A stretch of DNA of 64,000 bases from Squalus acanthias (lineage: Eukaryota), in the NCBI GenBank assembly GCA_030390025.1, contig CM059432.1, positions 45,076,001 through 45,140,000 of the forward strand, written 5' to 3'. The position numbers were made by a program, and so were the translations under genes. Below, in pieces: positions 5,751-39,592 of the stretch. The notes beneath the pieces are model-generated. The model searched no databases. It worked only from the letters and a program-made list of their open reading frames with translations, and was not told the DNA's origin. Each line of letters starts with the position of its first letter. Position 1 is the first letter of the stretch.

Positions 5751-8577
5751 TTGAGAGGTCGCACAACACCAGGTTATAGTCCAACAGTTTTATTTGAAAT
5801 CACAAGCTTTCGGAACTATCGCTCCTTCCTCAGGTGAAGTAAATTGGATACAGAATCGTCAGAGCATATATAGATGGAAAAAAAAGCATGTGTACTTTAC
5901 AATTGCAGACCAATAAATTAAATCATCCTGACTATCTGCCGAGGTGTGATAAAGTTAATTAAGTCAGCCAGGAAGGTACCACATCAAAAGACATAGCAAG
6001 ATACAACTGAGACAATGAGGTGAAGTCGCAGGGGTTCTAACGTGTCAAAAGCTGCCGTCTGTATGTAAAACGAAAAGCTTTAAAAAAAAAAATTTACTTT
6101 TTTACTGGGAAAATTTTTACTTTTTTACTGGGAATCACATCTGTGAACAAGCTAACGACGACTCGAGTCCGGATCACGTCATGTATCGTGACATAAACCC
6201 AAGATCCCGATTGAGACCGTCTTCATGAGTGCAGAACTTGGCTATCAGTTTCTGCTCGATGATTTTGCGTTGTCGTGTGTTTCTAAGGTTGCCTTGGAGA
6301 ACGCTTACCCGCAGATCCGAGGCTGAATGTCCTTGACTGCTGAAGTGTTCCCCGACTGGGAGGTAACAATCCTGCCTGGCGATTGTTGCGCGGTGCTCGT
6401 TTATACGTTGTCTCAGTGTCTGCATGGTCTCGCCGATGTACCATGCCGCGGTGCATTCTTTCCTGCAACGTATGAGGTAGACAACGTTGGCCGAGTCACA
6501 TGAGTATGTACCATGTACCTGGTGGGTAGTGTCCTCACGTGTGATGGTGGTATCTGTGTTGATGATCTGGCATGTCTTGCAGAGTTTGCCATGGCAGGGT
6601 TGTGTGGTGTCGTGGTCGCTGTTATCCTGAAAGCTGGGTAATTTGCTGCGAACGATGGTACTTCTGAGGTTAGGCGGCTGTTTGAAGGCAAGTAGTGGAG
6701 GCGTGGGGATGGCCTTAGCGAGGTGTTTGTCGTCATCGATGACATGTTGAAGGCTGCGAAGAACATGTCGTAGTTTCTCCGCTCCGGGGAAGTACTGGAC
6801 GACGTAGGGTACCCTGTTGGTTGTGTCCCGTGTTTGCCTTCTGAGGAGGTCTATGCGATTTTTCGCTGTGGCCCGTCGGAACTGTCGATCGATGAGTCGA
6901 GCGTCATATCCCGTTCTTACGAGGGCGTTTTTCAGCGTCCGTAGGTGTCCATCGCGTTCCTCCTCGTCTGAGCAGATCCTGTGTATTCGCAGGGCTTGTC
7001 CATAGGGGATGGCTTCTTTAACATGGTTAGGGTGGAAGCTGGAGAAGTGGAGCATCGTGAGGTTGTCCGTGGGCTTGCGGTAGAGTGAAGTGCTGAGGTG
7101 TCCGTCTTTGATGGAGATTCGTGTGTCCAGGAATGAGACCGATTCTGAGGAGTAGTCCATGGTGAGTTTGATGGTGGGATGGAACTTGTTTATGTTATCG
7201 TGTAGTCTTTTCAGTGATCCTTCGCCATGGGTCCAAAGGAAGAAAATGTCGTCGATGTATCTGGTGTACAGCGGTGGCTGGAGGTCCTGTGCAGCGAAGA
7301 AGTCTTGCTCGAACTTGTGCATGAAGATGTTGGCGTATTGGGGTGCGAATTTGGTCCCCATGGCTGTTCCGTGTGTTTGGGTAAAAAAATGGTTGTCGAA
7401 GGTGAAGACATTGTGGTCAAGGATGAAGCGGATGAGTTGTAGGATGGCGTCTGGAGATTGGCTGTTGTTGATGTTGAGTACTGAGGCTGTTGCAGCGATG
7501 CCGTCATCGTGGGGGATACTGGTGTAGAGTGCCGATACGTCCATCGTGGCAAGGAGTGTTCCTGGTTCAACTGGTCCGTGGGTGCTGAGTTTCTGTAAGA
7601 AGTCTGTAGTGTCGCGACAGAAGCTGGGGGTTCCCTGTACGATGGGTTTCAGAATGCCCTCGACGTATCCAGAGAGGTTCTCACACAGGGTTCCATTGCC
7701 TGATACGATAGGACGTCCGGGTGTGTTGGCTTTGTGTATCTTTGGGAGGCAGTAGAAGTCTCCCACGCGGGGAGTACGTGGGATGAGAGCGCGTAGGATG
7801 TTTTGAAGGTCTGGATCGAAGGTCTTGATCAGTCTATTGAGTTGGCGGGTGTGTTCTTTGGTCGGATCTGCGGGTAGCTGTCTGTAGTGTTCCTGGTTGT
7901 CCAGTTGTCGGTATGCTTCTTTACAATAGTCCGTTCTGTTCTGTATGACGATGGCTCCTCCTTTGTCCGCTGGTTTGATGACAATGTTGCGGTTGGTCTT
8001 GAGAGCGTGGATGGCGTTGCGTTGTGCTCGGGTGACATTCTGGACTGTCTTGTGAGTGCGGCTGATGAATCTGGCGTTGATGCATTTCCTGACAGCTTGA
8101 GCATACATGTCAAGCTTGGGGCAGCGACCCTCCGGAGGGGTCCAGTTTGACTCTTTTTTCTTCGGTTGCTGCACTGCGAGTCCCTCTGTCTGCTGTTCTG
8201 GATCATTGATTGTCTCATTGGGTTTGTTGCTGACATCTTGGGATTTGTGGAAGTATTCCCGGAGCCTCATTCTCCTGATGAATTCCTCCGTGTCTGCCGC
8301 GAGACCGATGGGGTCCATTTTGGTGGTTGGGCAGAACTTGAGCCCTAGGGCGAGAACTTCGATTTCGTCTGGTTGAAGGGTATGGTCGGACAAGTTGACG
8401 ATGGACTTCCCTGTGGTTGCAGCCGTGGTACCGGGGGAGGCTTGGTTGCTGCTGGTGGTGATGCCGAGTTTCTCAAGCTTCCTGTTCTTGATGCGCATGT
8501 AGGCAGCGTAGTTCCGTTGCCTCGTCTGTTTGGTGGTGTCTCGTAACTGGTCTGCTGTGTCCTGAGCACAGGCTGAG
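5751..8577 (-). mobile_element. Penelope-like element (Poseidon-type), 5'-truncated
   Basis: RT + GIY-YIG ORF and a 3' region with HHR and AATAAA. Candidate TSD ACAGTA at 5745-5750 and 8578-8583. Confidence 0.93.
5800..5837 (-). ncRNA. Minimal type I hammerhead ribozyme (family A)
   Basis: Minus strand UCAC-CUGAGGA-AGGAGC GAUA GUUCC-GAAA-GCUU-GUGA: both core boxes, stem I UCAC/GUGA, and a palindromic AAGCUU stem III. Confidence 0.85.
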
Positions 8578-8588
8578 ACAGTACACAT
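6174..8588 (-). CDS. Penelope-type reverse transcriptase + GIY-YIG endonuclease (804 aa, uninterrupted)
   Basis: RT motifs IKPADKGGA, FYCLPKIHK..PGRPIVS, MDVSALYTSIP, GTAMGT, RYIDD and YRKPT. GIY-YIG motif NVVYLIRC..YIGET..LRQRINEH and C-terminal GLN. Confidence 0.95.
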   Translation of the reverse strand: MCTVSACAQDTADQLRDTTKQTRQRNYAAYMRIKNRKLEKLGITTSSNQASPGTTAATTGKSIVNLSDHTLQPDEIEVLALGLKFCPTTKMDPIGLAADTEEFIRRMRLREYFHKSQDVSNKPNETINDPEQQTEGLAVQQPKKKESNWTPPEGRCPKLDMYAQAVRKCINARFISRTHKTVQNVTRAQRNAIHALKTNRNIVIKPADKGGAIVIQNRTDYCKEAYRQLDNQEHYRQLPADPTKEHTRQLNRLIKTFDPDLQNILRALIPRTPRVGDFYCLPKIHKANTPGRPIVSGNGTLCENLSGYVEGILKPIVQGTPSFCRDTTDFLQKLSTHGPVEPGTLLATMDVSALYTSIPHDDGIAATASVLNINNSQSPDAILQLIRFILDHNVFTFDNHFFTQTHGTAMGTKFAPQYANIFMHKFEQDFFAAQDLQPPLYTRYIDDIFFLWTHGEGSLKRLHDNINKFHPTIKLTMDYSSESVSFLDTRISIKDGHLSTSLYRKPTDNLTMLHFSSFHPNHVKEAIPYGQALRIHRICSDEEERDGHLRTLKNALVRTGYDARLIDRQFRRATAKNRIDLLRRQTRDTTNRVPYVVQYFPGAEKLRHVLRSLQHVIDDDKHLAKAIPTPPLLAFKQPPNLRSTIVRSKLPSFQDNSDHDTTQPCHGKLCKTCQIINTDTTITREDTTHQVHGTYSCDSANVVYLIRCRKECTAAWYIGETMQTLRQRINEHRATIARQDCYLPVGEHFSSQGHSASDLRVSVLQGNLRNTRQRKIIEQKLIAKFCTHEDGLNRDLGFMSRYMT

Positions 8589-8757
8589 GGCACAAACTGT
8601 GCTGGTCCAAGCAACCCCACAGCTTAGGATGTTGGGAAGTCATAGCAGGGTCATCTTGAGGCCTAGCTCAAGCAGGTGTCCCAGGAGGCCCAAACTGACA
8701 CTCAGCACATTGTCACCTCTCTGACTTCAGCCACTGAGGAAACATATAAAAGGAGCA

Positions 8758-8911
8758 CGATAGCAAAATACTGCGGATGCTGGAAATCCGAAATAACAAC
8801 AGAAAACGCTGGAAAAACTCAGCGGGCCAGACAACATCCGTGGAGAGAGAAAGAGTTAACGTTTCAGGTCGATGACCTTTCGTCAGAACTGGGAAGAGCC
8901 GGAAATCAAAA
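8758..8911 (-). mobile_element. Solo Penelope 3' end (family B) with HHR
   Basis: 14-bp TSD ATATAAAAGGAGCA (8744-8757, 8912-8925). Homologous to 21300-21430, which lies downstream of a GIY-YIG frame. Confidence 0.88.
8854..8890 (-). ncRNA. Minimal type I hammerhead ribozyme (family B)
   Basis: AGUU-CUGACGA-AAGGUC AUC GACCU-GAAA-CGUU-AACU, with palindromic AACGUU. Confidence 0.85.
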
Positions 8912-11430: not shown

Positions 11431-11524
11431 TTTAAAAAAAGACATATTTGTGTAGTTTGCCTTAAATAAATAAATATATGTAGCTTGAAGCATAGTTGAT
11501 GGTGCAGCGAATATACTTGTGATA

Positions 11525-11667
11525 TGCAAAAGCAAAATACTGCAGATGCTGTAAATCTGAAATAAAAACAGAAATTACTGGAAATACTCAGCAGGTCAGG
11601 CAGCATCTGTGGAGAGAGAAACAGAGTTAACGTTTCAGGTCAATGACCCTTCGTCAGAACTAGGGAT
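11525..11667 (-). mobile_element. Solo Penelope 3' end (family B) with HHR
   Basis: 14-bp TSD ATATACTTGTGATA (11511-11524, 11668-11681). Confidence 0.88.
11625..11661 (-). ncRNA. Minimal type I hammerhead ribozyme (family B)
   Basis: AGUU-CUGACGA-AGGGUC AUU GACCU-GAAA-CGUU-AACU. Confidence 0.85.
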
Positions 11668-13796: not shown

Positions 13797-14232
13797 TTTA
13801 TGTACTGTACCACACTGAAGCTTTTGGAGGTCCAAAAGTACTGGATATCTGAATTTAGCCCTTGGTCTGCCAGTTGCAAGGAATGGGGCAGGTTATGCAG
13901 TAAGAGAAGTTGCTGAAAGTAGCACTAAGAATATATTTGGACTGTGTGAGTTTTCTGAGTTCTGATCATTTTATGGATTTGTCAAACATGACTTTATTTT
14001 GAGACAATGTTCAGTGAATCTGTTATCAACAATCTTAAGGGTGTTGAAATAAAGCAAGGAAGTGAAATGTTGATTTTACAAAAGAAAAATACTGTGGAAA
14101 TCTAAAATAAAAATGCAGGAAATACTCAGCAAGTCAGGCAGCATCTGTGGAGAGAGAAGCAGAATTAACGATTCAGGTCGATGACCTTTCATCAGAACTC
14201 ATAAAAAGTAATCAACCTCAAACGTTAACTCT

Positions 14233-15044
14233 GGCCGCGATTTTGTAAATAGATGCGGGTTGGGAGCGGGTCAGGTGGTTTCTGGCTTCCAGTCCCGTCC
14301 CCAACAACATCTGGCCCACGGACATCATTTTACGTTGATTGACCTTGTTAAGCCCGCCCTACGAGCTTGCCGGCCAATTAAGAGGAAGCCGGTCAGATGA
14401 CATCACAGAATCACAGAATCACAGAATCCCCACAGTGCAGATAGAGGACATTTCGGCCCATCGAGCCTGCACCGACACATATCCCACCCTATCCCCGTAA
14501 CCCCACGTGTTTAATCCCCCTAACACTAAGGGTCAATTTATCATAGCCAAATCAACCTAACCCGCACATCTTTGGACATCATTTGATGACGCTTCAGCTG
14601 CCGGTTTTCTTAAAGGGACCACGTACAATTTTTCTTTGACAGCTCATTTCTCAGTGTTTGACAGCATTGAAGTGCTGCAAACACTGACAATTACTGTACA
14701 AAGGTGAGCTCTTGCACCCAGGCTCTCCAGTGACTCCCTCCATAGGCTGGAACAGATGGCAGCTGCAGGTGAGGTTACAGAAGTGATCTCTCACTAGTGA
14801 GAGAGGTTCTCCCAATAAGGTGGGACTAGACATCGATTTCAAAACATTTTACCTACAGAAAAATGGCTTTAATCCTCTTCCCGCCGCTAGGTGTCGGTTC
14901 CATGCGCAAATCGGGGACCCGACACTTGGGAAAATTGTTTGGAGGCGAGTTGACAGCGGGATCGAAACCCGCCGTCAATCAAAATGATTTTGACCCTTGA
15001 CCAGCCTTCAAACCCGCCCTCTCAGTGCTGATAAAATCGCGGCC
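14233..15044. mobile_element. Harbinger-type MITE
   Basis: Perfect TIR GGCCGCGATTTT / AAAATCGCGGCC. The TSD TCT is confirmed by re-joining the interrupted Penelope end (AACGTTAAC-TCT-GTTTCTC). Confidence 0.9.
14405..14577 (-). mobile_element. HE1-like SINE 3' fragment with CR1-type (ACAGAATC)n tail
   Basis: Octamer tail, CR1-like 3' stem, and TAACCCGCACATCTTTGG core. Flanked by a GACATCA duplication. The family name is from recall. Confidence 0.65.
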
Positions 15045-15344
15045 TCTGTTTCTCTCTCCACAGATGCTGCCTGACCTGCTGAGTATTTCCAGCATCTTCT
15101 GTATTGTAGATTTTACATACCATTTCAACAGGGATGCTTACTACCATTATTTTAAACACTTTTCCTTAACAGAATAACCATTTGCATAATTTTTTGATTA
15201 AATTGTTCTCTCAATTAATTCAGAATTTTTTTTTAAATATGTAGAATATCTCAGCATTCTAGCAAGCTAAGGTGAGTGTGAAACTTCAAGATTTTGGGGT
15301 TCAAAGCTAGGCCTGTATCTTCCATCCTTCATGTCAAGTTCCAC

Positions 15345-18645: not shown

Positions 18646-19822
18646 TAACTAGAGTAAGAAGAGCAGAAAAGATCCTAATGTGTAACATATCTAAATTCCG
18701 AATTAGAAGGAAAGTTGGTAAAAAAAATTGGGGGTCAAAACTCGTGCCACAAACCCTCTTCATCTACAGAGCTGATCTCAACAAAAAGAGCAAACATAAT
18801 CAACCAAACTGCTGAAAATAATAGCTAAAAAGCTGACATTGGGGTTTTTGGCCATCCCTTTATTCAAATTATATCAGCAAAATTATGAATGAGTTGATTC
18901 CAGCATTAAGAGCCAGAAATAGCATTGACATCCAAACAAAATCATTTCCGCCACATTTACATATTTCAATGAAGCTCCCACCTATTTCTGGCAGAAGCTT
19001 CCTGTATCAGTTGGACACAGCCCTCAGAAATATGCATCATACTCTTTGTGAACAGAGCTCTACCGTCAGTGATTTTGTCCCATATTTCTGGTCAGTTAAA
19101 CCCCTGATGTGCCCATTTAAAGGGTGTAAACAATGTAAATATTCACCCTACTCAGTCAGACCATAAGCATGAGGAGCTCGCTTTATCCCACCAATTTCCA
19201 TTATCCACCAGTGGATCTCCTGCAGTATGGCAGATAGTTGAGATTCTGCTGTACTGGTGTTATAGCACTGTAGCATTTGTTTATAATGATGGATCTTTCC
19301 TGTCATGTGGCGCATTATGGTATTGATTGTGGTTATGGAGATCTCTCTGGCCTAGAAAAATCTGTATTCAAGAAGGACGGCATAGAGATGGTGAAAAGAG
19401 ATAAAATTTATAGTATTATTATATTAATAAGACAATTACATGGCAGATTTTGATTTGAATCGATTTTGCATGGCACAGACATAAATCTGTAGTGTAACTG
19501 CAGTTCATGTCACATGATCTGAGCATGAATCTATCAAAAACAGTGTAAAACCACCTGGAGTCCCACACCATTCACTGCACATCAGTTACAGTCAGAATTT
19601 TTGTTTTGCATTCAGCTAATATTTTATCATATCCTCAAGCCATCCTCAAGCATTTTACAACCAATGGCTTATTTTTCAAGTAGCAACTGTCATTATGTAG
19701 GCAGCCAAATGTGCACAGCAAGATCCCCCACACAGGAAATGAATGAATGACCAGGTAAAGTAAAAACAGAAAATGCTGGGAATACTCAGCAGGTCAGGCA
19801 GCATCTGTAGAGAGAGAAACAG

Positions 19823-19860
19823 AGTTCAACGTTTCAGGTCGATGACCCTTCGTCAGAACT
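19823..19860 (-). ncRNA. Hammerhead ribozyme motif (family B, left arm)
   Basis: AGUU-CUGACGA-AGGGUCAUCGACCU-GAAA-CGUU-G-AACU, with one extra nt near the cleavage site. Confidence 0.7.
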
Positions 19861-20679
19861 GGAAAAAGTTAGAGATGTAACAGAATTTAAGCAAGTGCAG
19901 GGGCAGGGAAAGGGAGGAGGGGAGGGAAGAACAAAAGGGAAGATCTGTGATAGGATGGAAGGCAGGAGAGATTAAAAGACAAAAGGGATGATGGTGCAAG
20001 GCAAAAGGAGATGGTAATAGGACAAGTTAAGAAACAATAGATGACTCTAGATGATGTGTAAATGGCAATGGCAGAATCATCAACTTGATGTTGAGCCCAG
20101 ATGGCTATAAAGTACCTAATCGAAAGATGCGGTGCTGTTCCTCGAGCTTATGTTGAGCTTCGTTGGAACAGTGTAAGAGGCCGAAGATGGAGAGATCAGA
20201 GTGGAGTGGAGAATTAAAGTGACAGGCAGCTGGAAGCTCGGGGTCACACTTACGGACTGAATGGAGGTGTTCCGCAAAGCGGACACCCAATCTGCGTTTG
20301 GTCTCCCCAGTGTAGAGGAGACCGCATCGTGAGCAGCGAATACAGTATACTAAATTGCAAGAAGTACAAGTAAATCACTTTTTCACCTGGAAGGAGTGTT
20401 TGGGGTCCTGGACAGTGGGAAGGGAGGAGGCAAAAGGGCAGGTGTTACAGCTCATGCGCTTACACGGGAAGGTGCCGTGGGAAGGGGAAGGGGTGTTGGG
20501 TATGATAGAGGAGTGGACCAGGGTGCTGCTCCCTGTGCGACACCCTGGTCCACTCCTCTGTCACCCCCAACACCCCTTCCCTTTCCCATGACACCTTCCC
20601 GTGCAAGCGCCGGAGATGCATCACCTGCCCTTTTACCTCCTCCCTTCCCACTGTCCAGGGCCCCAAACACTCATTCCAG

Positions 20680-21009
20680 GTGAAACTTCGATTTAATTCT
20701 ACTTCTTGCAATTTAGTATACTGTATTCGCTGCTCAAGATGTGGTCTCCTCTACATTGGGGAGACCAAATGCAGATTGGGTGACCGCTTTGCGGAACACC
20801 TCCGTTCAGTCCGTAAGCATGACTCCGAGCTTCCGGTCACGTGTCACTTTAATTCTCTGCTCCACTCCCACTCTGATCTCTCCATCCTCGGCCTCTTACA
20901 TTGTTCCAATGAAGCTCAACGTAAGCTCGAGGAACAGCACCTCATCTTTCGAGTAGGCATTTTACAGCCTTCTGGACTCAACATCGAGTTCAACAATTTC
21001 AGACTATAA
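20680..21009 (+). pseudogene. GIY-YIG endonuclease domain of Penelope family B (truncated ORF end)
   Basis: NLVYCIRCSRCGLLYIGETKCRLGDRFAEH..LEEQHLIFRVG..PSGLNIEF. A mirror copy lies on the minus strand at ~20085-20390. Confidence 0.9.
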
Positions 21010-21299
21010 GCTCGGCCCCTATTTTATTTTTTCTTTATTTTTTTCTTTTTGCCTTTTTTTCTCTCACATGGCAGCTAGATGATTCTGCCATTGCCATTTA
21101 CACCTCATCTAGAGTCATCTTTTGTTTCTTAACTTGTCCCATTACCATCTCCTTTTGCCTTTCACCATCATCCTTTTTGTCTTTTAATCTCTCCTGCCTT
21201 CCATCCTTTCACAGACCTTCCCTTTTGTTCTTTCCTCCCCTCCTCCCTTTCCCTGCCCCTGCACTTGCTTAAAAATCTGCTACAACACTAACTTTTTCT

Positions 21300-21336
21300 A
21301 GTTCTGATGAAGGGTCATCGACCTGAAACGTTAATT
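21300..21336 (+). ncRNA. Hammerhead ribozyme motif (family B, right arm)
   Basis: AGUU-CUGAUGA-AGGGUCAUCGACCU-GAAA-CGUU-AAUU. Confidence 0.82.
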
Positions 21337-21879
21337 CTGTTTCTCTCTCTTCAGATGCTGCCTGACCTGCTGAGTATTCCCAGCATTTTCTGTTTTTATT
21401 TCAGATTTTCAGCATCCACAGTATTTTGCGTTTGAATGACCAGATGATCTGCTTTTGGCCAGACTGCCCCAATAGTAGCTGAGATGTTGAAATCTACAGC
21501 TGGACCCTCTTCAGTCAGAGCTTCTCAGGGTTGCCAACCACAGCAATCCCAAGTGCCCTCATCAGAGGCTTGGCAGCCTTCCACCTCCCATGCTGAAGCC
21601 TTGTAGGAGCACCAGAATAGGTTGGAGAGCACTAAGGTCAGGCACTAGTGGCTTGTACCAGGGTTAAGCTCAGTTTCTGGATGTGTTTATGTTCATTATC
21701 AGTAGCACTTTCTAATGGAATTCTTATTGTGTAGAGATTGTTTGGTGAGTATTTGTTGACCAGGTAATCTAATTCGACAGAAATACCCATGCTGGTGTTG
21801 GGTTGAATGCATTTTTAAGGATTGTGGCAGGATTGGGCCTTATGTTGGTGCAGGGGAATAGAGATAATTTAGCCAAAGT

Positions 21880-26385: not shown

Positions 26386-26533
26386 TGCAAATGGATGCTG
26401 TAAATCTGAAATAAAAGTATAAAATGCTGGAAATACTCAGCAGGTCAGGCAGCATCTTGACCTGAGACGTGAACTCTGTTTCTCTCTCCATGGATGCTGC
26501 CTGACCTGTTGAGTATTTCCAGCATTTTCTGTC
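26386..26533. mobile_element. Short tail-outward inverted pair of Penelope family-B ends
   Basis: AAAATGCTGGAAATACTCAGCAGGTCAGGCAGCATC ... GATGCTGCCTGACCTGTTGAGTATTTCCAGCATTTT. The HHR is only partial. Confidence 0.8.
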
Positions 26534-28481
26534 TTCTCAGAGGTCTTCTTTTACCATCCAAGGCCCTGCAAGTGTCCAGCAGCATTCCCTGCACACTTTT
26601 AAAACTTTTAACATTTATTGCACCAAGCCACTACTTCAACAAAATGTAAAAAATTCCAATCCAAAAGCTTAAATGCCAACTTACCTGAAAGATGTGTGTG
26701 TCCCTTTAAGAAGTGCTGACAGCTCACTTTTCAGAACAAGCTTAGAACCTAGTGCTAAACTCAGTGCAATGGTCCAAGTTCGCAGAGCGTGACATTAAGT
26801 CGATGTTGCACATCGACTGACATCGTGCTCTCCATATTTGAATATCCAGGGTCAGCGCTGCTATCAGCAGCGCTAAGGCCCTCACCAAAATGGCGGCCAC
26901 CAAGTCCCATGCCAGAGAAGGGCATTAGAGCGGAGGCCGCCATTATTTTCCAGCCTTGCGGTGGTAACTTGTGGCATAACGGTAGGGAATTTCTAGGCCA
27001 AAGTATTTTTGTTTAGTTATAATTAGCTCCTATTCCTTTAAATCCACTCATAGGACATGAACAGTTTTTTAAAAAAGCAATTGCAGTTTAGATTTGTCTG
27101 TCAAAATAGCAAAGATTGACAGCGGGTAGGAAACCCGCTGTCAAACTGCCTCCACGCGAGTCTCCCAGGTGTCGGGTCTGTCAGCCGCGAACTGACCCAA
27201 CACCAAGTGGCGGGGGATACAATTCAGCTTGTTAAATGGCTTGTTAAGATCCAATTTAAGACTATTTTGAGGCTTACTTCTAATTTTACGTTCTCCCCCA
27301 CGGGTTACCCGCTGTTCAGGGAACACACCAGCTCACCCTGGCGTGTTTTGAGTCTGCTCTGATGTTTCTGAAAAGCTGACATCTGCAAAAGTGGTGTAAA
27401 GGATGCCATGTTGCAGATGGTGAGTTTCAGAGCGCAGAAAATGTTGGTTACTGCATTTTTAATACATATAGAGATTTCTTTAGCTTACAAGTTTTTAGAT
27501 CCAACTGTATGTCCAGTGCCACCTCATTGGGAGAACCTCGCTCACCAATGACAGATCGCTTCTGTCATCTCACCTGCAGCTGCCATCTATTGCAGCAACA
27601 TCGGAGCCATTGAAAAAATCAGACCTTGGTCCTCCGAATCATTCCACGATCAGCCCCAACACCAACATCACCAGGCACACCAACATCACCGACAACATCA
27701 CCAACCTTCTCCGCCATCAACTGATGCTGCACTGGACACAGGGCATCAGCTCCTGACAACATTGCTGCCCGGGAGGCCAGCGATGGCATCACCATGGCCA
27801 GATTTTCTTCACTTGATGCTGTAAATCCTGGCTGCCACATAATGCGCCAGTTTGACACCATCCCACACCAGCACCGTGAAGCATCCCTATAATGTCCAAG
27901 CCATTCCATGCACATACATCACTATAGCGGGGTGGGGCGGGGGGGTGGGGTGTGGGAGGAGAGAGGTGGGGTAATTATCTCTGAACAATGACTGGAACTC
28001 AGTAAGACACTTCTCAAGGTGCGCTCAGATCTGTCCAATAAGGGGCACTTTTGGAAAAATAGATTTCACTGTATGACAACACATTACCAGAAACATCACA
28101 TGGACATTGGCTAAACCGCTCAAGAGCCTACCCTTGTGTGTTGCTAGTTGGTATGCTTGCAGCAGGATGCGGGTGAGTGTGAGGGGTGGCTAGTGAGATG
28201 GGGAAGTGATAAGGTAGATAGAGAGCATTGGGTGGAGGTGCAAGGTAAGTTGGTGTGAGTAAGGATGTGCAGGAGAAGGGTATGGAAGGCAGAGTGATGG
28301 GGATGGGTTGAGTGGCACAGCAGGGTGAGTTTGAGTGTGGATTTGCAGTAACGTTTTGTGATCCACTGAGATCATTGAAAGGTTGGCACCATTGCAGCCA
28401 GGGACCCCTGACGACATCCCTGCCTTTGCCCTCCTGTGCAATGTGCAACCAGGCTGCGTTGGTGTACTGGGGAGGTCCCTT

Positions 28482-30390
28482 AACATAAGAACATAAGAAA
28501 TAGGAGCAGGAGTAGGCCAATCGGCCCCTCGAGCCTGCTCCGCCATTGAATAAGATCATGGCTGATCTGATCCTAACCGCCAATCTACTATCACAGAACC
28601 ATCTCCTGCATCTAACAGAATTGCACACACGAAATAGGAGCAGAATCAGGCTACACGGTCCCTGGGCCCGCTCCACTACCCACAGGGCCATGACCGGATC
28701 CGAACCTAGACTCATGTCCAAATTCCTGCCCGCTCCCCGTAACCCTTAATGCCCTTTACTTCTAGGAAACTGTCTATTTCTGTTTTAAATTTATTTAATG
28801 ATGTAGCTTCTACAGCTTTTTGTGGCAGCATATTCCATGGACCTACCACCCTCTGAGTGAAGTAGTTCCTCCTCATCTCAGTTTTGAAAGAGCAGCCCCT
28901 TATTCTAAGACTATGTCCCCTAGTTCTAGTCTCACCCGTCATCGGGAACATCCTCCCCGCATCCACCCGATCCAACCCCTTCACAATCTTATATGTTTCA
29001 ATAAGATCGCCTCTCATTCTTCTGAACTCCAATGAGTAGAGTCCCAATCTACCCAACCTCTCCTCATATGACCACCCCCTCATCCCCGGGATTAACCGAG
29101 TGAACCTTTTTTGCACTGCCTCGAGAGCAAGGATGTCTTTCCTTAAGTAAGGACACCAAAACTGTATGCAGTATTCCAGGTGCGGTCTCACCAATACCTT
29201 GTACAACTGAAGCAATACCTCCCTATTTTTATATTCTATCCCCCTAGCAATGAAAGCCAACATTCCATTTGCCTTCTTAATCACTTGCTGCACCTGCATA
29301 CTAACCTTTTGAGTTTCGTGCACCAGGACCCCCAGATCCCTTTGCACTTCAGTACTCTCCAGTTTCTTGCCATTAAGATAATAAATTGCTCTAGGATTTT
29401 TCCTGCCAAAGTGCATCACCTCACACTTTCCAGCGTTGTATTCCATCTGCCAAATCTCTGCCCACTTACTTAGCCTGTCTATGTCCCCTTGCAGGTTTTT
29501 TATGTCCTCCTCACTCACTACTTTCCCTCCCATCTTTGTATCATCTGCAAATTTTGATATGTTACACTTGGTCCCTTCCTCCAAATCGTTAATATAGATT
29601 GTAAAGAGTTGGGGACCCAGCACTGACCCCTGTGGAACACCACTAGTTACTGATTGCCAGTCTGAGAATGAACCATTTATCCCAACTCTTTGCTTTCTGT
29701 TAGATAGCCAATCCTCTATCCATGCCAGAATATTACCCCCAATCCTGTGATTTTTTACCTTAAGCAATAATCTTTTGTGTGGCACCTTGTCAAATGCCTT
29801 TTGGAAGTCTAAATACACTACGTCCACTGGTTCCCCTTTATCCACTCTATATGTTACTTCCTCAAAGAACTCCAGCAAATTTGTCAAACATGACTTCCCC
29901 TTCGTAAAACCATGCTGACTTTGTCCTATTAAATTATGATTATCCAAATGTCCTGTTACTGTTTCCTTAATAATGGACTCCAAAATTTTACCTACCACAG
30001 ATGTTAGGCTAACCGGTCTATAGTTACCAGCCTTCTGTCTACTGCCCTTTTTAAATAAGGGTGTTACATTAGCAGTTTTCCAGTCTGCCGGGACCTTAGC
30101 GGAATCCAGGGAGTTTTGAAAAATTATTACCAATGCATCTACAATCCCTACCGCCACTTCCTTCAAGACTCTAGGATGTAAGCCATCAGGTCCAGGTGAT
30201 TTATCTGCCTTGAGTCCCATTATTTTACCGAGTACCACTTCCTTAGTGATTTTGATCGTGTTTAGCTCCTCTCCCCCTATAGCCCCCTGTTTGTCCAGTG
30301 TTGGGATATTCTTAGTGTCCTCTACTGTAAAGACTGATACAAAATATTCATTCAGTGTTTTTGCCATCTCCATATTTCCCACCATTAATT
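28482..30390 (-). mobile_element. Young 5'-truncated CR1 LINE
   Basis: (CTTATGTT)n tail and flanking TCCCTT duplication (28476-28481, 30391-30396). Confidence 0.95.
28712..30385 (-). CDS. CR1 ORF2 reverse transcriptase portion (557 aa, uninterrupted, endonuclease missing)
   Basis: [51 protein letters not shown]. Confidence 0.93.
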   Translation of the reverse strand: MVGNMEMAKTLNEYFVSVFTVEDTKNIPTLDKQGAIGGEELNTIKITKEVVLGKIMGLKADKSPGPDGLHPRVLKEVAVGIVDALVIIFQNSLDSAKVPADWKTANVTPLFKKGSRQKAGNYRPVSLTSVVGKILESIIKETVTGHLDNHNLIGQSQHGFTKGKSCLTNLLEFFEEVTYRVDKGEPVDVVYLDFQKAFDKVPHKRLLLKVKNHRIGGNILAWIEDWLSNRKQRVGINGSFSDWQSVTSGVPQGSVLGPQLFTIYINDLEEGTKCNISKFADDTKMGGKVVSEEDIKNLQGDIDRLSKWAEIWQMEYNAGKCEVMHFGRKNPRAIYYLNGKKLESTEVQRDLGVLVHETQKVSMQVQQVIKKANGMLAFIARGIEYKNREVLLQLYKVLVRPHLEYCIQFWCPYLRKDILALEAVQKRFTRLIPGMRGWSYEERLGRLGLYSLEFRRMRGDLIETYKIVKGLDRVDAGRMFPMTGETRTRGHSLRIRGCSFKTEMRRNYFTQRVVGPWNMLPQKAVEATSLNKFKTEIDSFLEVKGIKGYGERAGIWT

Positions 30391-30786
30391 TCCCTTGTGC
30401 CCTTGGAAGGGAAGAGAACCTCCCTGTGTGCTGTGACTCCCTCCATAAGCATATGGAGGGAGTCGTTGGAGAGCCTGGGTATAAGCGTTCCCCTTTGTGC
30501 AGTGCTTGTCAATGTTTGAAGCACCTCAATGCTGTCAAACACTGACAGAACAACTGTCAAACTCAATGTGGACGTGGTCCCTTTAAGGAAACCGGCTGAT
30601 GACGTGTCATCAAATGACGTCATCAGACCCGCTTCCTGTTAATTGGCCGGAAAGCCCGCAGGGCGGGATTAACAAGGCCAATCAAGGGAAAATCACGTCT
30701 GCAGAGCGGCTGCAGCTGGGAGTGGGACCGGAACCCAGAAACCAGCTCTCCCACCACCATCCCGCCTCCTCCATTAAATTTGCAGC

Positions 30787-33700
30787 CTTTGTGTCTGTCT
30801 TCACGGAAGAAGATGCAAAAAAACTTCCTGGAAATAGTGGCGAACCAAGGGTCGAGCGAGAATGAGGAACTGAAAGAAATTAGTATTAGTAAAAAAATAG
30901 TACTGGAGAAATTAATGGGACTGAAAGCTGATAAATCCCCTGGACCTGCTGGCCGATATCCAAGAGTTTTGAAAGAGGTGGTTATAGAGATAGTGGATGC
31001 ATTGGTTGTCGTTTTCCAAAATTCCATAGATTCTAGAACGGTTCCCGCGGATTGGAAGGTAGCAAATGTAACCCCACTATTTAAGAAAGGAGGGAGAGAG
31101 AAAACGGGGAACTACAGACCAGTTAGCCTGACATCAGTAGTAGGGAAAATGCTGGAATCTATTATTAAGGATGTGGTAACAGGGCACTGAGAAAGTAATA
31201 ATAGGATTAAGCAGAGTCAACACGGATTTATGAAAGGGAAATCGTGTTTGACAAATCTGTTAGAGCTTTTTGGGGTTGTAACTAGCAGAATAGATAAGGG
31301 GGAACCAGTGGAAGTGGCGTATTTGGATTTTCAGAAGGCATTCGATAAGGTGCCACACAAAAGGTTATTAAACAAAATTAGGGCTCATGGGATTGGGGGT
31401 AATATGCTAGCATGGATTGAGGATTGGCTAACGGACAGAAAACAAAGAGTAAGAATAAACAGGTCATTTTCGGATTGGCAGGCTGTAACTAGTGGGGTAC
31501 CGCAAGGATCAGCGCTTGGGCCTCAGCTATTCACAATCTACATCAATGATTTGGATGAGGGGACCAAATGTAATATATCCAAATTTGCTGATGATACAAA
31601 GTTGGGTGGGAATGTAAGTTGTGAGGAGGATGCAAGGAGGCTTCAAGGGGATATAGACAGGCTAAGTGAATGAGTAAGAACATGGCAAATGTAATATAAT
31701 GTGGAGAAATGTGAAGTTATCCACTTTGGTAGGAAAAATAGAAAAGCAGAGTATTTTTAAATGGTGAGAGATTGGGAAATGTTGGTGTTCAGAGGGACCT
31801 GGGTGTCCTTGTACACGATTCACTGAAAGTTAACATGCAGCTACAGCAAGCAATTAGGAAAGCAAATGGTATGTTGGCCTTTATTACAAGAGAATTTGAG
31901 TACAAGAGTAAAGACATCTTACTGCAGATATATAGGGCCCTGGTGAGACCATACCTGGAGTATTGTGTACTGTTCTGGTCTCCTTACCTAAGGAAGAATA
32001 CACTCGCCATAGAGGGAGTGCAACGAAGGTTCACCAGACTGATTCCTGGGATGGGGGGATTGTCCTATGAGGAGAGATTGAGAAGACTAGGCCTATATTC
32101 TCTAGAGTTTAGAAGAATGAGAGGTGATCTCAATGAAACATACAAAATTCTTACAGGGCTTGACAGGGTAGATGCAGGGAGGATGTTGCCCCTGGCTGGG
32201 GATTCTAGAACCAGGAGTCACAGTCTCAGAATAAGGGGTCGGCCATTTAAGACTGAGATGAGGAGAATTTTCTTCACTCAGAGGGTGGCGAATCTCTGAA
32301 ATTCTCTACCCCAGAGGGCGACGGAGGCTCAGTTGTTGAGTATATTCAAGACAGAGATCGATAGATTTTAACCAAATTAGTAACAATACTGTGGAGGAGG
32401 AATTCCTAGAGTGTATACGGGATGGTTTCCAGGTCCAATATGTCGAGGAACCAACCAGAGATCAGGCCATCTTAGACTGGGTATTATGTAATGAGAAAGG
32501 ATTGATTAGCAATCGTGTTGTGTGAGGCCCCTTGGGGAGGAGTGATCATAATATGATAGAATTCTTCATTAAGATGGAGAGTGAAGTAGTTCACTCAAAG
32601 ACTAGGGTCCTGAATTTAAATACATGAAACTACGATGGTATGAGGCACAAATTGGCTAGGATGGATTGGGGAACGTTACTTAAAGGGTTGACGGTGGATA
32701 GGCAATGGCAAACATTTACAGATCGCATGGATGAACTACAGAATTTGTTCATCCCTGTCTGGCATAAAAATAAAGCAAAAACGGTGGCGCAACCGTGACT
32801 AACAAGGGAAATTAGGGATAGCATAAGATCCAAGGAGAGGTCATATAAATTTGCCAGAAAAAGCAGCAAACCTGAGGATTGGGAGCAGTTTAGGATTCAG
32901 CAAAGGAGGACAAAAGGATTAATTAGGGAGGGGGAAAATAGAGTATGAGAGTAAGCTTTCAGGGAACATAAAAACTGACTGTAAAAGCTTCTATAGATAT
33001 GTGAAGAGAAAAAGATTGGTGAAGTCAAGCGTAGGTCCCTTGCAGTCAGAATCAGGGGAATTTATAATGGGGAACAAAGAAATGGCTGACCAATTAAATA
33101 CATACTTTGGTTCTGTCTTCACAAAGGAGGACACAAATAACCTCCCAGAGATGTCGGGGAATATAGGGTTTAATGAGAGGGAGGAACTGAATGAAATCAG
33201 TATTTGCAGGGAAATGGTGTTAGGGAAACTGACGGGATTGAAGGCCGATAAATCCCCAGGGCCTGATAATCTACATACTAGGGTAATTAAGGAAGTGGCC
33301 CTAGAAATAATAGATGCATTGCTGGTCATCTTCCAAAATTCTATGGATTCTGGCACAGTCCCCATGGATTGGAGAGTAGCTAATGTAACCCTACTATTTA
33401 AAAAAGGTGGTAGAGAGAAAATGGGGATTTATAGACTGGTAAGCCTGACATCGGTAGTGGGGAAAATGCTAGAGTCCATTATAAAAGATGTAATAGCAGA
33501 GCACTTGGAAAACAGTGACAGGATCGGACAAAGTCAACATAGATTTACAAAAGGTAAATCATGCTTGACTAATCTACTGGAATTTTTTGAGGATGTAACT
33601 GGTAGAATAGATAAGGGAGAAGCAGTGGATGTGGTGTATTTGGACTTTCAGAAGGCTTTCGATAAGGTCCCGCATAAGAGATTAGCATGCAAAGTTAAAG

Positions 33701-34970
33701 CACATGGGATTGGGCGTAATGTACTGACTTGGATGGAGAACTGATTGGCAGACAGGAAGCAAAGAGTTGGAATAAACGGGTCTTTTTCCGAGTGGCAGGC
33801 AGTGACTAGTGGGGTACTGCAGGGATCGGCGCTAGGACCCCAGCTATTCACAATATATATTAATGATCTAGACGAGGGGACTAGATGTAATATCTCCAAG
33901 TTTGCAGATGACACAAACCTGGGTAGGCGTGTGTGCTGTGAGAAGGATGCAGAGAAACTCCAGTATGATTTGGACAGGTTGGGTGATTGGGCAGATGCAT
34001 GGCAGATGCAGTATAATGTGGATAAATGCGAGTTATCCACTTTTGTGGCAAAAACAGGAAGGCAAATTATTATCTGAACGGCAATAGATTGGGAGAAGTG
34101 GAAGTGCAATGAGACCTGGGTGTCCTTGTGCAGCAGTTGCTGAAGGTAAGCATGTAGGTGCAGCAGGTGGTTAAGAAGGCAAATGGTATGTTGGCCTTCA
34201 TAGCGAGAGGATTCGAGTACAGGAGCAAGGATGTCTTGCTACAGTTGTACAGGGCCTTGGTGAGACCACATCTTGAGTATTGTGTGCAGTTTGGTCACCT
34301 TATCTGAGGAAGGATGTTCTTGCCATGGAGGGAGTGCAGCGAAGATTCACCAGACTGATACCTGGGATGGCAGGACTGACGTATGAGGAGAGATTGGGTC
34401 GATTGGGCTTATATTCACTGGAGTTTAGAAGAATGAGAGGGGATCTCATTGAAACTTATAAAATTCTAACAGGACTAGACAGACTAGATGCAGGAAGGAT
34501 GTTCCTGATGGCGGGGGAGTCCAGAACCAGAGATCGCAGTCTAAGGATAAGGGGTAAGCCATTAGGACAGAGATGAGGAGGAATTTCTTCACCCAGAGAG
34601 TGGTGAACCTGTGGAATTCTCTACCACAGAAGGCAGTTGAGGCCAATTCATTAAATATATTCAAGAAGCAGTTCGATATATTTCTTAAGGCTAAAGGGAT
34701 CAAGGGATATGGGGAGAAAGCTGGGACAGGGTCCTGAATTTGGATGATCAGCCATGATCTCATTAAATTGCGGAGCAGGCTCGAGGGGCCGAATGGCCTA
34801 CTCCTGCTCCTATCTTCTATGTTTCTATGAATATTAAGGGATTCAAGGGATACGGTGATAGTGCAGGAAAGTAGAGATGAGGTAGAAGATCAGCCATGAT
34901 CTTATTGAATAGCGGAGCATGATCGAAGGGCCAAATGGCCTTCCCTGCTCCTATTTCTTATGTTCTTATG
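30787..34970 (+). mobile_element. CR1 LINE (30787-32369 + 34830-34970) split by a second CR1
   Basis: RT motifs with stops and frameshifts. The 3' end resumes at 34830 (AATATTAAGGG..) and ends in CTTATGTTCTTATG. Confidence 0.9.
32370..34829 (+). mobile_element. Nested CR1 LINE, defective
   Basis: Endonuclease C-terminus (EEPTRDQAILD..SDH) through RT (FADD) to the CTATGTTTCTATG tail. Confidence 0.92.
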
Positions 34971-35017
34971 TAAACATTGAAACCTTTATTTTCAACACTT
35001 TGCGTTCTTGGACAGAT

Positions 35018-36178
35018 TTTTCTACATGGACTTCAGTAAGGCTTTTGACAAAGTCCCGCATGGGAGACTGGTCAAGAAGGTAAGAGCCCATGGGATCCAG
35101 GGCAATTTGGCACATTGGATCCAAAATTGGCTTAGTGGCAGGAGGCAGAGGGTGATGGTCGAAGGTTGTTTTTATGACTGGAAGCCTGTGTCCAGTGGTG
35201 TACCGCAGGGATCGGTGCTGGGTCCCTTGCTGTTTGTAGTGTACATTAATGATTTAGATATGAATGTAGGCGGTATGATCAGTAAGTTCGCAGATGACAC
35301 GAAAATTGGTGGAGTGGTAAATAGCGAGGAGGGAAGCCATAGACTACAGGACGATATAGACGGGTTGGTCAGATGGGCAGAACAGTGGCAAATGGAATTT
35401 AACCCTGAAAAGTGTGAGGTGATGCATTTTGGGAGGACTAACAAGGCAAGGGAATACACAATGAATGGTAGGACCCTAGGAAGGACAAAGGATCAGAGGG
35501 ACCTTGGTGTGCATGTATATAGATCCCTTAAGGCAGCAGGACAGGTAGATAAGGTGGTTAAGAAGGCATATGGGATACTTGCCTTCATTAGCCGAGGCAT
35601 AGAATATAAGTGCAGGGAGGTTATGATGGAGCTGTACAAAACGTTAGTTAGGCCACAGCTGGAATACTGTGTGCAGTTCTGGTCGCCACACTATAGGAAG
35701 GATGTGATTGCATTAGAGAGGGTGCAGATGAGATTCACCAGGATGTTACCTGGACTGGAGCGTTTCAGCTATGAAGAGAGACTGGACAGGCTGGGGTTGT
35801 ATTCCTTAGAGCAGAGAAGGCTGAGGGGGGACCTGATTGAGGTGTACAAAATTATGTGGGGCATAGATAGGGTAGATAGAAAGTAACTTTTCCCCTTAGT
35901 AGAGGGGTCAATAACCAGGGGGCATAGTTTCAAGGTAAGGGGCAGGAGGTTTAGAGGGGATTTGAGGAAAAACTTTTTCACCCAGAGGGTGGTTGGAATC
36001 TGGAACTCACTGCCTGAAAGGGTGGTAGAGGCAGGAACCCTCACAACATTCAAGAAGCATTTAGATGAGCACTTGAAACGCCATAGCATACAAGGCTACG
36101 GACCAAGTACTGGAAAATGGGATTAGAATAGACAGGGCTTGATGGCCGGCGCAGACACGATGGGCTGTATAACTCTAT
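35018..36178 (+). mobile_element. CR1 LINE 3' fragment
   Basis: [35 protein letters not shown], with an (ACTCTATG)n tail into which two Harbingers inserted. Confidence 0.95.
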
Positions 36179-37420: not shown

Positions 37421-39235
37421 ATGGAGAGGGTGAGAGAACGAGCTCAGCGCTTCAGTGAGTGGGCCTTGGAGGCTCTGGTTGGTGCGGTGGAGTGTAGAAG
37501 ATCTATACTCTACCCTGAGAGTGGCAGGAGGCCTTTGCCGCGCGACTACAGAAGAGTGTGGAGAGAGGTGGCTCAGCACGTCTCCTCCAGGAGCATGGTG
37601 CCCAGGACCCATACTCAATGTCGCAAAAAGTTTAACGACCTCACTCAGGTCGTCAGGGTGAGTGGCTTTTTTTCAATACCTCTCCATCCCTGCATCTCAA
37701 CCTCACTCTATGGCCAGAGGGTCTTAAAACCCCAATGCCCAACACTCATCCAACACCAATGGCCCTCTCATGAAACACACACACACATTCCACACTTTAC
37801 ATACAGTAAGGGCTATTCAACTATGGGAGGCACATCAGGCAAGACCATGGCTGCATACATTAAGGGCTACTCAATTATGGGAGACACATAAGGCAAGACC
37901 ATGGCTGCATACATTAAGGGCTATTCAATTAAATGGAGGCACATCAGGCAAGACCATGGCTGTATATTTACTCAGACGCCGTCCTTTTTCTTGCAGGCCA
38001 AGCAATCTCATAATAGGAGACAGCAACAACGGACGGGTGGAGGGCAGCCTCAGCTGCAACCCCTCAGTGATCTTGAGGCACGCGTCCACAGATTTGTGGC
38101 AAGCCAGGTGATCGGTCCCGTCGCCCCTGGAGACGCCGACTCCGTTCTGGACAGCAATGGTAAGGTCATCAGCTTTCTCTCCTCTCTCATTCCACTTGTC
38201 GCTCACAACACCAGCCTTTGACACTTTCAATCCAACTTACTAAATCGCTTCACTCGTTCCTCCCTTACTGTCCCCCTGTCCTCACGCTAAAGCCACTCTT
38301 GTACCTCCCTGCTTTCAGATGGTGATTCACCAGCTGAGGAGACGGGCCCTGACGCTGCCAGTGGGAGTGAAGCTGCAGGCGAGGATGAAGAGGAAGCCGG
38401 AGCATCAGCGCCACCCTCTCCCGAGGAAGCCCATGCCCACACTGGGAACACATCTTCCCTGGAGGGGAGCAGGGGGGAAGGGTCTGATGAGGGTGAAGCT
38501 CGAGGACCCAGCAGGCTGCAGCAACGCGATGTGGCTAGGGAAGCTCGGGGGCCTTCTCCTCGGAGGGAGAGTAGGCCAGTGAGTCCTGCTGCACTGGACG
38601 CAGAGGAGGAGCGGCTCATCGCTGAAATGAACACCCAGGCGGTGCACATGCACACTCAGCTCATGGGTGCAGTGGGAAGGGTGCCCGAAACCATTGATGC
38701 ACTGGCAAGGAGTGTGGAGCACTTCGCTGTAGCACAGGCGGATGCCACGCTAAAGCTTAGTGCTGCAATTCAGTCACTGGCTGCCGTGATCCCATCTCAG
38801 ACTGCTCTCATGCAGACTCAGATTGAGGCCACGCAAGCACTGACTGCTGCCATTGTCGCTGGTTCGGACACATTTCCCCAGGGCTCTCACCGCGCCGCAG
38901 CAGGCCAGCAATCTGTGCTCCAGCAGATTGCTCTGGATGCTGATGTGCTGCCCTGTGGGAGTGCCAGTGTGTCGGTCGAGCAGGGAGTTGCTGTCCTCTC
39001 TCAAGAGGACAGCATTCCTGCTTCCACCACTGTCACTTCTCCATTGCACTTCCCACCGCCTGTAGCCCAGACTGCTGCCGCCCATGCAGAGTTGGTGCAG
39101 TCTGCAGCCGGGCCCTCCAGGCCCAGAGCTGGTCGAGGCCGTCCTTCAAGGGCATCTGTAGTCTCAGGTCTGACTATCAGCAGCCTTCACCAGCCTTGCT
39201 GCAGCCACTGGGGCCTCATTACGGAGGAGCAGTAG
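37421..39235 (+). CDS. Harbinger Myb/SANT-like (trihelix) DNA-binding protein, 3 exons: 37421-37657, 37997-38159, 38319-39235 (~438 aa)
   Basis: RFSEWALEALV..VWREVAQHVS..RTHTQCRKKFNDL and RTGGG. Canonical splice sites GTGAGT/TTGCAG and GTAAGG/TTTCAG with compatible phases 0 and 1. The extreme C-terminus may be frameshifted. Confidence 0.85.
37807..37968 (+). repeat. 54-bp minisatellite x3 in intron 1 of the Myb gene
   Basis: Unit TAAGGGCTAYTCAAYTATGGGAGRCACATMAGGCAAGACCATGGCTGCATACAT starts at 37807, 37861 and 37915. Confidence 0.92.
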
Positions 39236-39592
39236 GGTGGGAAGGGAGGAAGTGCGCAAGGGAAGGAGATCACTCTCGAAGGGCAAAAAGTAGGAGGTGT
39301 GACGAAATGTTGGTCAATTTTTTATTAAAGGCCGAGGTTCGTGTTCAAACTTTTGTTTAGTGTTTTGGACATTATCTCCAGGTTGTGAGAACCAGTTATG
39401 TTAATGAATGATTTTTTGTGTTTGTTTCTATTAATTTGTCATGAAGAAATGACACACACAGAGTTTATAAAATAAAAAAGTTTTTGTATTCAAAATGTAC
39501 AGGTTTGGCCTTTGGAATCATTGCTGCCTTGGCCGGCTTTGGGGTTGCGGGTTGCTTTCATTCATGTTGTTCTCCATGGCAGAAGCCATTTC

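What the first reader, a model, noticed from the sequence alone, without database searches (positions are those of the whole stretch)
19744..21443. 1.68-kb palindrome made in one insertion: two Penelope 3' ends, tails outward, each with a hammerhead
Seen: arms of ~770 and ~890 bp are truncated at the same internal point and separated by 15 nt, within a single 11-bp TSD. The same tail-outward geometry recurs at 14081-15104 and 26386-26533, so 3 of 5 family-B inserts here are inverted pairs. Established: inverted pLTRs are known for Penelope. Inference: both target nicks primed from an RNA 3' end, possibly from two RNAs held together by the palindromic HHR stem III (AACGUU). Fold-back of the cDNA is the alternative. 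Transcription from either strand would give a long hairpin dsRNA that includes the GIY-YIG sequence, a possible endo-siRNA or ADAR substrate.
Basis: partly seen in the sequence, partly recalled or inferred. Interest (0 to 1): 0.72.

Follow-up and report, generated by a model that had tools for sequence, protein, structure and literature searches.

The report
Penelope palindrome copied from both cuts
This 1.7-kb mirror-image stretch is a real but old, dead insertion of a Penelope-like jumping gene in a layout already described and shared by about a quarter to a third of sampled sister copies, whose unequal ends indicate that both cut DNA strands likely started their own copy of the element's RNA at two fixed points.

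Summary
The palindrome is real: two 5'-truncated ends of a Neptune/Nematis-type Penelope-like element, head to head inside one 11-bp TSD, arms 92% alike, each with a minimal hammerhead core. Corrections: the 15-nt 'spacer' is the right arm's own sequence, only the right arm has the 33-nt tail, and both ends are likely internal priming sites, not RNA 3' ends. The layout is published (PMC3846280, PMC8557442) and common here: 11 of 50 inserts in an unselected census, with TSD. Across three samples, classifiable pairs have one long and one short end (23/24, 19/19, 8/8). In 26 of 37 pairs neither arm lies within the other, which excludes simple fold-back for them. Arms share source alleles (focal pair 5 shared, 3 discordant; 12.9 discordant expected). 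Best reading: twin target-primed reverse transcription, likely on one RNA (0.55), or on two RNAs from one source (0.25). A hammerhead-held RNA dimer is not supported. Equal truncation is not the rule (4/11, then 0/12). Expression, small RNAs and long-read support could not be tested. This scan found the same thing many times before, in this and other genomes.

The parts
19744..19754 (.). Left copy of the 11-bp target-site duplication TGAATGACCAG
19755..20525 (-). Left arm: 5'-truncated element end that stops at the short (tail-less) site, 33 nt before the long end; carries an 87-nt internal deletion at 20081/20082 that removes the ORF stop region
19828..19856 (-). Minimal type-I hammerhead core of the left arm (CUGACGA, stem II, GAAACGUU); predicted, activity untested
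   Evidence: motif class from PMC4209133 passages
20526..20540 (+). The '15-nt spacer': element sequence that continues the right arm inward
20526..21432 (+). Right arm: 5'-truncated element end that runs to the long (tailed) site
20527..21009 (+). ORF remnant: Cys linker (CKRRRCITC) and GIY-YIG endonuclease with its CCHH-type cysteines, ending in TAA; no RT domain, no start codon
21304..21332 (+). Minimal type-I hammerhead core of the right arm; predicted, activity untested
21355..21432 (+). ATG and first ~26 codons of the next tandem unit's ORF; its last ~33 nt (21400-21432) are the one-sided tail
21433..21443 (.). Right copy of the target-site duplication
14079..15105 (.). Sister long+short inverted pair with an 11-bp TSD (1 mismatch), interrupted by an 812-bp TIR element at 14233-15044
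26386..26535 (.). Sister short inverted pair, TSD not clear
11524..11661 (-). Single long-end insert of the same family, 5' end 134 nt from the long end, with TSD
8758..8910 (-). Single long-end insert of a very young subfamily (Y), with TSD; used as the probe for young copies
   Evidence: L170

Best explanation
This is a dead, 5'-truncated insertion of an endonuclease-bearing Penelope-like retrotransposon, likely made by twin target-primed reverse transcription: both staggered nicks of one target site would prime a cDNA on element RNA from one source, most likely one molecule, one at the distal (tailed) start site and the other at the proximal site about 33 nt upstream. Shown here: one TSD; a long and a short outer end; head-to-head geometry; shared source alleles; the same rule across sister inserts. 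Shown in vitro for the anole element (PMC11167929): nicking and extension of both strands, and two internal start sites that bound the tail; a dimer is predicted there. Inferred: a protein dimer places one nick at each start site; the proximal RT runs ahead and the distal one follows by displacing it; the two antisense cDNA flaps are joined where they stop, through 0-7 nt of microhomology or a short insert, and are filled in; single inserts arise when one cDNA is lost or never starts. The hammerheads ride along in the copied 3' region and are likely not needed for the pairing.
For: Long+short rule: 23 of 24 classifiable young pairs (26 found; p about 1.5e-6 even at a null of 0.5), 19 of 19 classifiable old-family pairs (37 found), and 8 of 8 classifiable TSD pairs in an unselected census of 50 inserts (p 0.0013). 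Singles use both ends (71 long, 42 short, 5 unclear; 11, 23, 1). Non-nested arms (short-end arm reaches further in, long-end arm further out): 16 of 25 young pairs and 10 of 12 census pairs. Shared source alleles: young pairs 33 concordant and 2 discordant vs 46 discordant expected, minimum 20 in 5000 shuffles; old family 41/34 vs 16/89; census 14/3 vs 4.1/22.7; focal pair 5/3 vs 2.1/12.9, with 1 of 102 comparisons as close. One allele with 12 exact matches in the genome sits in both arms of L213 and on that background in none of the other 10. The short-end arm tends to be the longer one (26 of 37, p 0.02), as expected if it leads. A slippage-prone 10-bp duplication differs between arms in 5 pairs, which fits two copying passes.
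Against: Allele sharing cannot tell one RNA molecule from two transcripts of one locus, nor fully exclude early gene conversion. L258 is a true TSD pair whose arms differ at the three-site pLTR haplotype (1 of 9 informative pairs). L241 and L354 are discordant at one lineage site each. Of two 'private' shared alleles checked genome-wide, one proved common (719 matches). The excess of equal truncation points (4 of 11, p 0.004) did not repeat (0 of 12). Short-end singles are also over-represented among long inserts of the census (23 vs 11), so the 'short arm leads' bias may not need one RNA. For this locus alone the short arm lies within the long arm, so fold-back is not excluded by its own geometry. 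One young and one census pair are long+long (L215, L368; neither has a TSD).
Confidence: 0.55

Rival explanations
1. Twin priming as above, but on two RNA molecules, usually from the same source locus (cis preference or one active locus per germ cell), each held by one subunit of a protein dimer.
For: It explains non-nested arms, broad and mostly unequal arm lengths, and the discordant pairs L258, L241 and L354. A dimer is predicted for the anole protein (PMC11167929). An unreviewed note on this genome (e1-8153267) reports about a quarter of mini-pairs with discordant halves; only partly checked here.
Against: It needs an extra asymmetry to give long+short every time. Discordance is rare in my samples. 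The L213 event-private allele needs a source copy that left no other exact match.
Confidence: 0.25
2. Self-priming hairpin: a template or first cDNA folds back at its truncated end and is copied (the reading in PMC3846280), and the endonuclease then cuts the open end with a 33-nt stagger, giving one long and one short end.
For: It explains shared alleles and the long+short rule in one step. Centres with small loops exist (this locus 15 nt; L164, L176, L213, L257). Snap-back-like junction inserts occur (L043). L215 is long+long with shared rare alleles and no TSD.
Against: A fixed stagger makes the loop-bearing arm always the same class, yet it is the short-end arm in 26 and the long-end arm in 11 of 37 pairs. 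Loops of 0.5-2 kb would be needed in many pairs. Singles use the same two ends. Two RNA start sites on both strands were seen directly in vitro (PMC11167929).
Confidence: 0.12
3. One reading: two RNAs are held together by the palindromic hammerhead stem III (AACGUU), and each primes one nick.
For: Metazoan PLE minimal hammerheads have palindromic positions 15.2-16.2 and are proposed to work as dimers (PMC4209133 passages). The AACGUU motif is intact in both arms.
Against: A two-fold symmetric RNA dimer predicts like-with-like ends. Naiads lack canonical hammerheads yet show the inverted copy and one-sided tail (PMC8557442). Hammerhead core mutants and templates cut to +20 still insert in vitro (PMC11167929). 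A dimer would capture RNAs of other source loci, but discordant pairs are rare.
Confidence: 0.04
4. Two independent events (a second copy landing in or beside the first), or an assembly mirror.
For: The family does insert into its own copies: L179, and the 132-nt insert inside L258. No listed contig bridges this centre.
Against: There is one TSD around the whole unit and none at the centre. The arms are 8% apart, as old as other copies, and share lineage alleles. The right junction is bridged in two studies.
Confidence: 0.04

Closest known systems
EN+ Penelope-like insertion units with an inverted 5'-truncated copy, a one-sided 30-40-bp tail and one TSD (Pen2a_Av of Adineta vaga, PMC3846280, passages read; general scheme in PMC8557442 Fig. 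2 legend, passages read)
   Same: Head-to-head inverted copy, tail at one end only, TSD round the whole unit, tail encoding the start of the ORF.
   Different: Here both arms are long (0.77 and 0.9 kb) and no full ORF is present. Those papers explain the junction by self-priming or by endonuclease resolution, and give no long+short counts or allele test in the passages read.
Poseidon element PAc of Anolis carolinensis (PMC11167929; abstract, main text and part of the Methods read, parts 1-2 of 4)
   Same: Two internal RT start sites inside the ORF start that bound the tail; both strands nicked and extended; hammerhead next to the ATG; uncleaved RNA used as template.
   Different: PAc is Penelope/Poseidon clade, while this family has the CX2-5CxxC linker of Neptune/Nematis. 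The parts read do not link two-strand priming to inverted pairs. The start sites here are about +45 and +80, not +111-118.
LINE-1 twin priming
   Same: Both target nicks prime cDNA on one RNA, and the two cDNAs are joined by microhomology, giving an inversion inside one TSD.
   Different: L1 arms copy different, non-overlapping parts of the RNA and the second primer anneals by homology. Here both arms copy the same 3' region from two fixed sites 33 nt apart, giving a palindrome.
Minimal type-I hammerheads of metazoan PLEs (PMC4209133, passages read)
   Same: [quoted passage not shown]
   Different: The stem II closing pair is G-U or A-U rather than G-C. Cleavage was not tested. The two motifs of this locus lie on opposite strands and cannot pair with each other as ribozymes in one transcript.

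Membership tests
EN+ Penelope-like elements | Single ORF with RT followed by a C-terminal GIY-YIG endonuclease | tested here: met
   Young relative L268 has an intact 955-aa ORF with RVT_1 (E 2.4e-05) and GIY-YIG (E 5.6e-04) hits, both below Pfam's cut-off; the focal arm's GIY-YIG passes it (23.9 vs 22.6 bits).
EN+ Penelope-like elements | [quoted passage not shown] | tested here: met
   LVYCIRCSRCGLLYIGET...EHLRSV...PVTCHF in the right arm; definition from PMC8557442.
EN+ Penelope-like elements | Partial tandem pLTR, optional inverted copy, one-sided 30-40-bp tail, TSD | tested here: met
   Focal unit. L268 shows full ORF + upstream pLTR + inverted short-end arm in one 16-bp TSD.
EN+ Penelope-like elements | RT phylogeny within the PLE clade | not tested
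   No tree was built.
Neptune/Nematis clades | CX2-5CxxC linker between RT and EN | tested here: met
   CKRRRCITC (focal) and CTRRRCNTC (L268); definition. Neptune versus Nematis was not resolved.
Penelope/Poseidon clade (strict sense) | Absence of the CX2-5CxxC linker | tested here: not met
   The linker is present.
Minimal type-I hammerhead of PLEs | Core CUGANGA / GAAA / NUH with stems I and II and palindromic stem III | tested here: met
   Motif in both arms; stem II folds. No Rfam hammerhead hit, and the monomer z-scores are not significant.
Minimal type-I hammerhead of PLEs | Self-cleavage as a dimer | not testable with these tools
   Needs an assay. Inserts run past the predicted cut at -102, so their templates were uncut.
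Simple fold-back (snap-back) inversion | Returning arm lies wholly within the first arm | tested here: inconclusive
   Met for this locus alone; not met in 26 of 37 sister pairs.
Hairpin endo-siRNA locus / ADAR substrate | Read-through transcript, small RNAs or edits mapped to the locus | not testable with these tools
   No raw RNA reads were offered; only the fold could be computed.

The most novel reading that the evidence does not exclude
Penelope-like elements normally integrate by priming both target nicks at once on a single RNA, one at each of the two start sites that bound the tail, the second RT displacing the first. This one rule would explain the inverted pLTR, the one-sided tail and the TSD of the whole class, and would be a retrotransposition route distinct from LINE TPRT that writes palindromes at about a quarter to a third of insertions.
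Probability: 0.5. Interest if true: 0.6.

Novelty: new member of a known kind. Interest (0 to 1): 0.36.

Why it matters
As an object the locus is ordinary: an old, ORF-less copy in a published layout. Its value is as one data point in a family whose copies record the insertion reaction. PMC8557442 calls the origin of tandem/inverted PLE structures still undefined, and PMC11167929 supplies an in vitro system. The long+short rule, the non-nested arms and the shared source alleles turn that open question into a direct test with barcoded RNAs. If such pairs are a quarter to a third of inserts, this genome also holds a large number of long inverted repeats that could yield dsRNA or fragile sites; that consequence is untested.

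Tried and rejected
Rfam scan: no hammerhead family hit; the miRNA hits at the centre are below gathering scores and reflect the palindrome. The palindrome as an amplified unit: no other scored candidate spans this centre. Two own-genome DNA searches returned nothing, which shows nothing. Equal truncation as a general rule: supported in one sample, not in the census. 'Private' shared alleles: 7 of 25 doubletons fell within one insert, but of two checked genome-wide one was a common lineage allele, so the figure overstates. Shared A-to-G edits as a single-RNA mark (lead from e1-10280452): 0 of those 7 alleles are A>G; small sample. Stops at the ribozyme cut (lead from e1-8622537): 5' ends of singles cluster at -132 to -134 (11 of 110 listed), with 1 at -101. 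RNAcofold of two hammerhead motifs gave intermolecular versions of the local hairpins and was not used as evidence. Expression: no RNA holder listed; contigs of one guessed-RNA run cover only 31-40-nt family-level pieces and two partial matches; neither is evidence either way. Centre bridging by short-read contigs: none listed, list cut; inconclusive. My first label 'Poseidon-type' was dropped after the linker check. L258 was first scored on the wrong pair of arms and left out of the totals; one search shows the true pair, which adds 2 discordant sites. Not done: RT tree, target-site symmetry, species naming.

Full report
Observation. The window holds an inverted pair at 19755-20525 (-) and 20526-21432 (+) inside the TSD TGAATGACCAG at 19744-19754 and 21433-21443. 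The arms match at 709 of 773 aligned columns. The left arm has an 87-nt deletion, with GTT at both deletion ends in the family consensus, and stops about 33 nt before the right arm's end. The 15 nt between the arms match what other copies carry just upstream of the shared point, so they belong to the right arm. Each arm has a minimal hammerhead core, which Rfam does not detect. The right arm keeps a GIY-YIG frame. Arms 8% apart cannot be an assembly mirror. Contigs from two studies bridge the right junction by 33 nt. The left junction is reached by 18 nt only, the centre is not bridged in the listed pieces, and no long reads were on offer.

What the element is. [quoted passage not shown] The CX2-5CxxC linker places it with Neptune/Nematis rather than Penelope/Poseidon; no tree was built. 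The ORF's ATG lies about 80 nt before the long end. The outer ends of the arms are thus about 45 and 80 nt into the next unit's ORF, not at an RNA 3' end. For the anole element, RT starts at two internal sites that bound the tail, both target strands are nicked and extended, a dimer is predicted, and hammerhead mutants still insert (PMC11167929, parts 1-2 of 4 read).

How common. In four unselected 100-kb blocks, 2 of 9 inserts were inverted pairs. Among 38 distinct inserts behind the 40 matches to a very young subfamily, 12 were pairs, 11 with a TSD. In a census of all 50 inserts on contig C1 that carry one exact 29-mer, 15 had an adjacent inverted arm and 11 had a clear TSD. The layout is described for rotifer and other PLEs, with the tail at one end only (PMC3846280, PMC8557442; passages read).

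Rule 1, one long and one short end. Young subfamily: 26 pairs found (some through palindrome-shaped queries), 24 classifiable, 23 long+short; the exception L215 is long+long without a TSD. The test used a hand tally of singles (31 long, 18 short); a recount gives 31 and 20. Even at a null of 0.5 the chance is about 1.5e-6 (25 in 2^24). Old family: 37 adjacent pairs detected, 19 with both ends classifiable (this locus among them), all long+short; the other 18 had an end that could not be classed. Census: 8 of 8 classifiable TSD pairs; 3 more had a long end and an end shorter than the short site; one long+long pair had no TSD. Singles use both ends.

Rule 2, arms need not be nested. A copy made by folding back cannot hold sequence that the first strand lacks. 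In 16 of 25 young pairs (values typed into; L258 left out; L257 was entered as long-further although its junction suggests the reverse by about 4 nt) and 10 of 12 census pairs, the short-end arm reaches further in while the long-end arm reaches further out, often by 0.5-2 kb. Both arms must there be copied from RNA. The focal pair is nested, so it is assigned by its two ends and by its family, not by its own geometry. Junctions show 0-7 nt overlaps or short inserts, some templated; reading these as microhomology-mediated end joining rests on my own knowledge.

Rule 3, one source. At non-CpG substitution sites the arms of 21 young pairs share 33 derived alleles and differ at 2, against 46 differences expected. 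The true L258 pair adds 2 differences. The old family gives 41 shared and 34 discordant in 22 pairs against 16 and 89, the census 14 and 3 in 11 pairs against 4.1 and 22.7, and the focal pair 5 and 3 against 2.1 and 12.9. Overall the focal arms are no closer to each other (7.4% at non-CpG sites) than to typical copies, so no late homogenisation is seen. One of two rare shared alleles tested genome-wide was common. The other has 12 matches, two of them the arms of L213, and none of the other 10 is on L213's background. This shows the same source lineage and hints at the same molecule.

The equal truncation point. Inner ends within 35 nt occurred in 4 of 11 young pairs (0.9 expected, p 0.004) but in 0 of 12 census pairs. 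Many short old pairs stop at -110 to -139, where singles also pile up (-132 to -134); a transcript start there is a guess. The near-symmetry of this locus is therefore one end of a broad range and weak evidence for any model.

The hammerhead and dsRNA ideas. A symmetric RNA dimer does not predict long+short, hammerhead-less Naiads have the same layout, and the templates were uncut because inserts run past the predicted cut at -102. A read-through RNA of the locus is predicted to form about 735 pairs with unbroken runs up to 54 bp, and would bury its one sense hammerhead. No RNA data could test this.

Verdict. Twin priming from both nicks at two fixed internal sites: about 0.8 in all, 0.55 on one RNA and 0.25 on two RNAs of one source. 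Hairpin plus staggered cut 0.12; hammerhead-held dimer 0.04; independent events or artefact 0.04. The structure is known. I did not find the twin-priming reading or the long+short count in print in searches of an open-access library that lacks most subscription papers. The scan's own unreviewed notes reach the same reading on many other loci; I had reached it before looking, and they are not counted as support. The host is a 3.7-Gb animal genome; notes call it shark-like, which I did not test.

Noticed in passing
window 6174-8639 (-): An 821-aa open frame that reads as the RT and GIY-YIG parts of a second, different Penelope-like family (label from motifs, not scanned).
   Followed up: no
window 14233-15044: An 812-bp element with terminal inverted repeats (GGCCGCGATTTT) and a 3-bp TCT duplication sits inside the sister palindrome; it looks like a non-autonomous PIF/Harbinger-type element (label recalled).
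   Followed up: partly
window 38291-40639 (-): A 348-aa frame resembling a Harbinger/PIF transposase and a neighbouring 314-aa frame (label recalled, not scanned).
   Followed up: no
window 45553-48343: Inverted arms 93-97% alike around a 1.5-kb spacer, unrelated to the Penelope family studied.
   Followed up: no
window 28480-35996: A cluster of CR1-like LINE fragments in both orientations, one with a 598-aa open RT frame at 28712-30508 (label recalled).
   Followed up: no
L179:63-1660; L258:5600-5750: Young copies inserted into other copies of the same family, each with its own short duplication; L179 landed in the hammerhead region of an older copy in opposite orientation. This is a second route to apparent inverted pairs.
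   Followed up: partly
L268:1130-5171: A complete young unit: intact 955-aa ORF, upstream pLTR starting at -123, inverted short-end arm and a 16-bp TSD.
   Followed up: partly
old-family singles and short pairs, -132 to -134 from the long end: 5' ends pile up at the 5' edge of the hammerhead, about 30 nt upstream of the predicted cut; possibly the transcript start.
   Followed up: partly
L031:4401-4545: A short palindrome of another Penelope-like family with a different hammerhead-like motif lies 30 nt from a palindrome of this family that lacks both 3' ends.
   Followed up: no
L043:7690-7712; L096:1331-1354: Junction inserts that repeat nearby arm sequence, inverted in L043 and direct in L096.
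   Followed up: no
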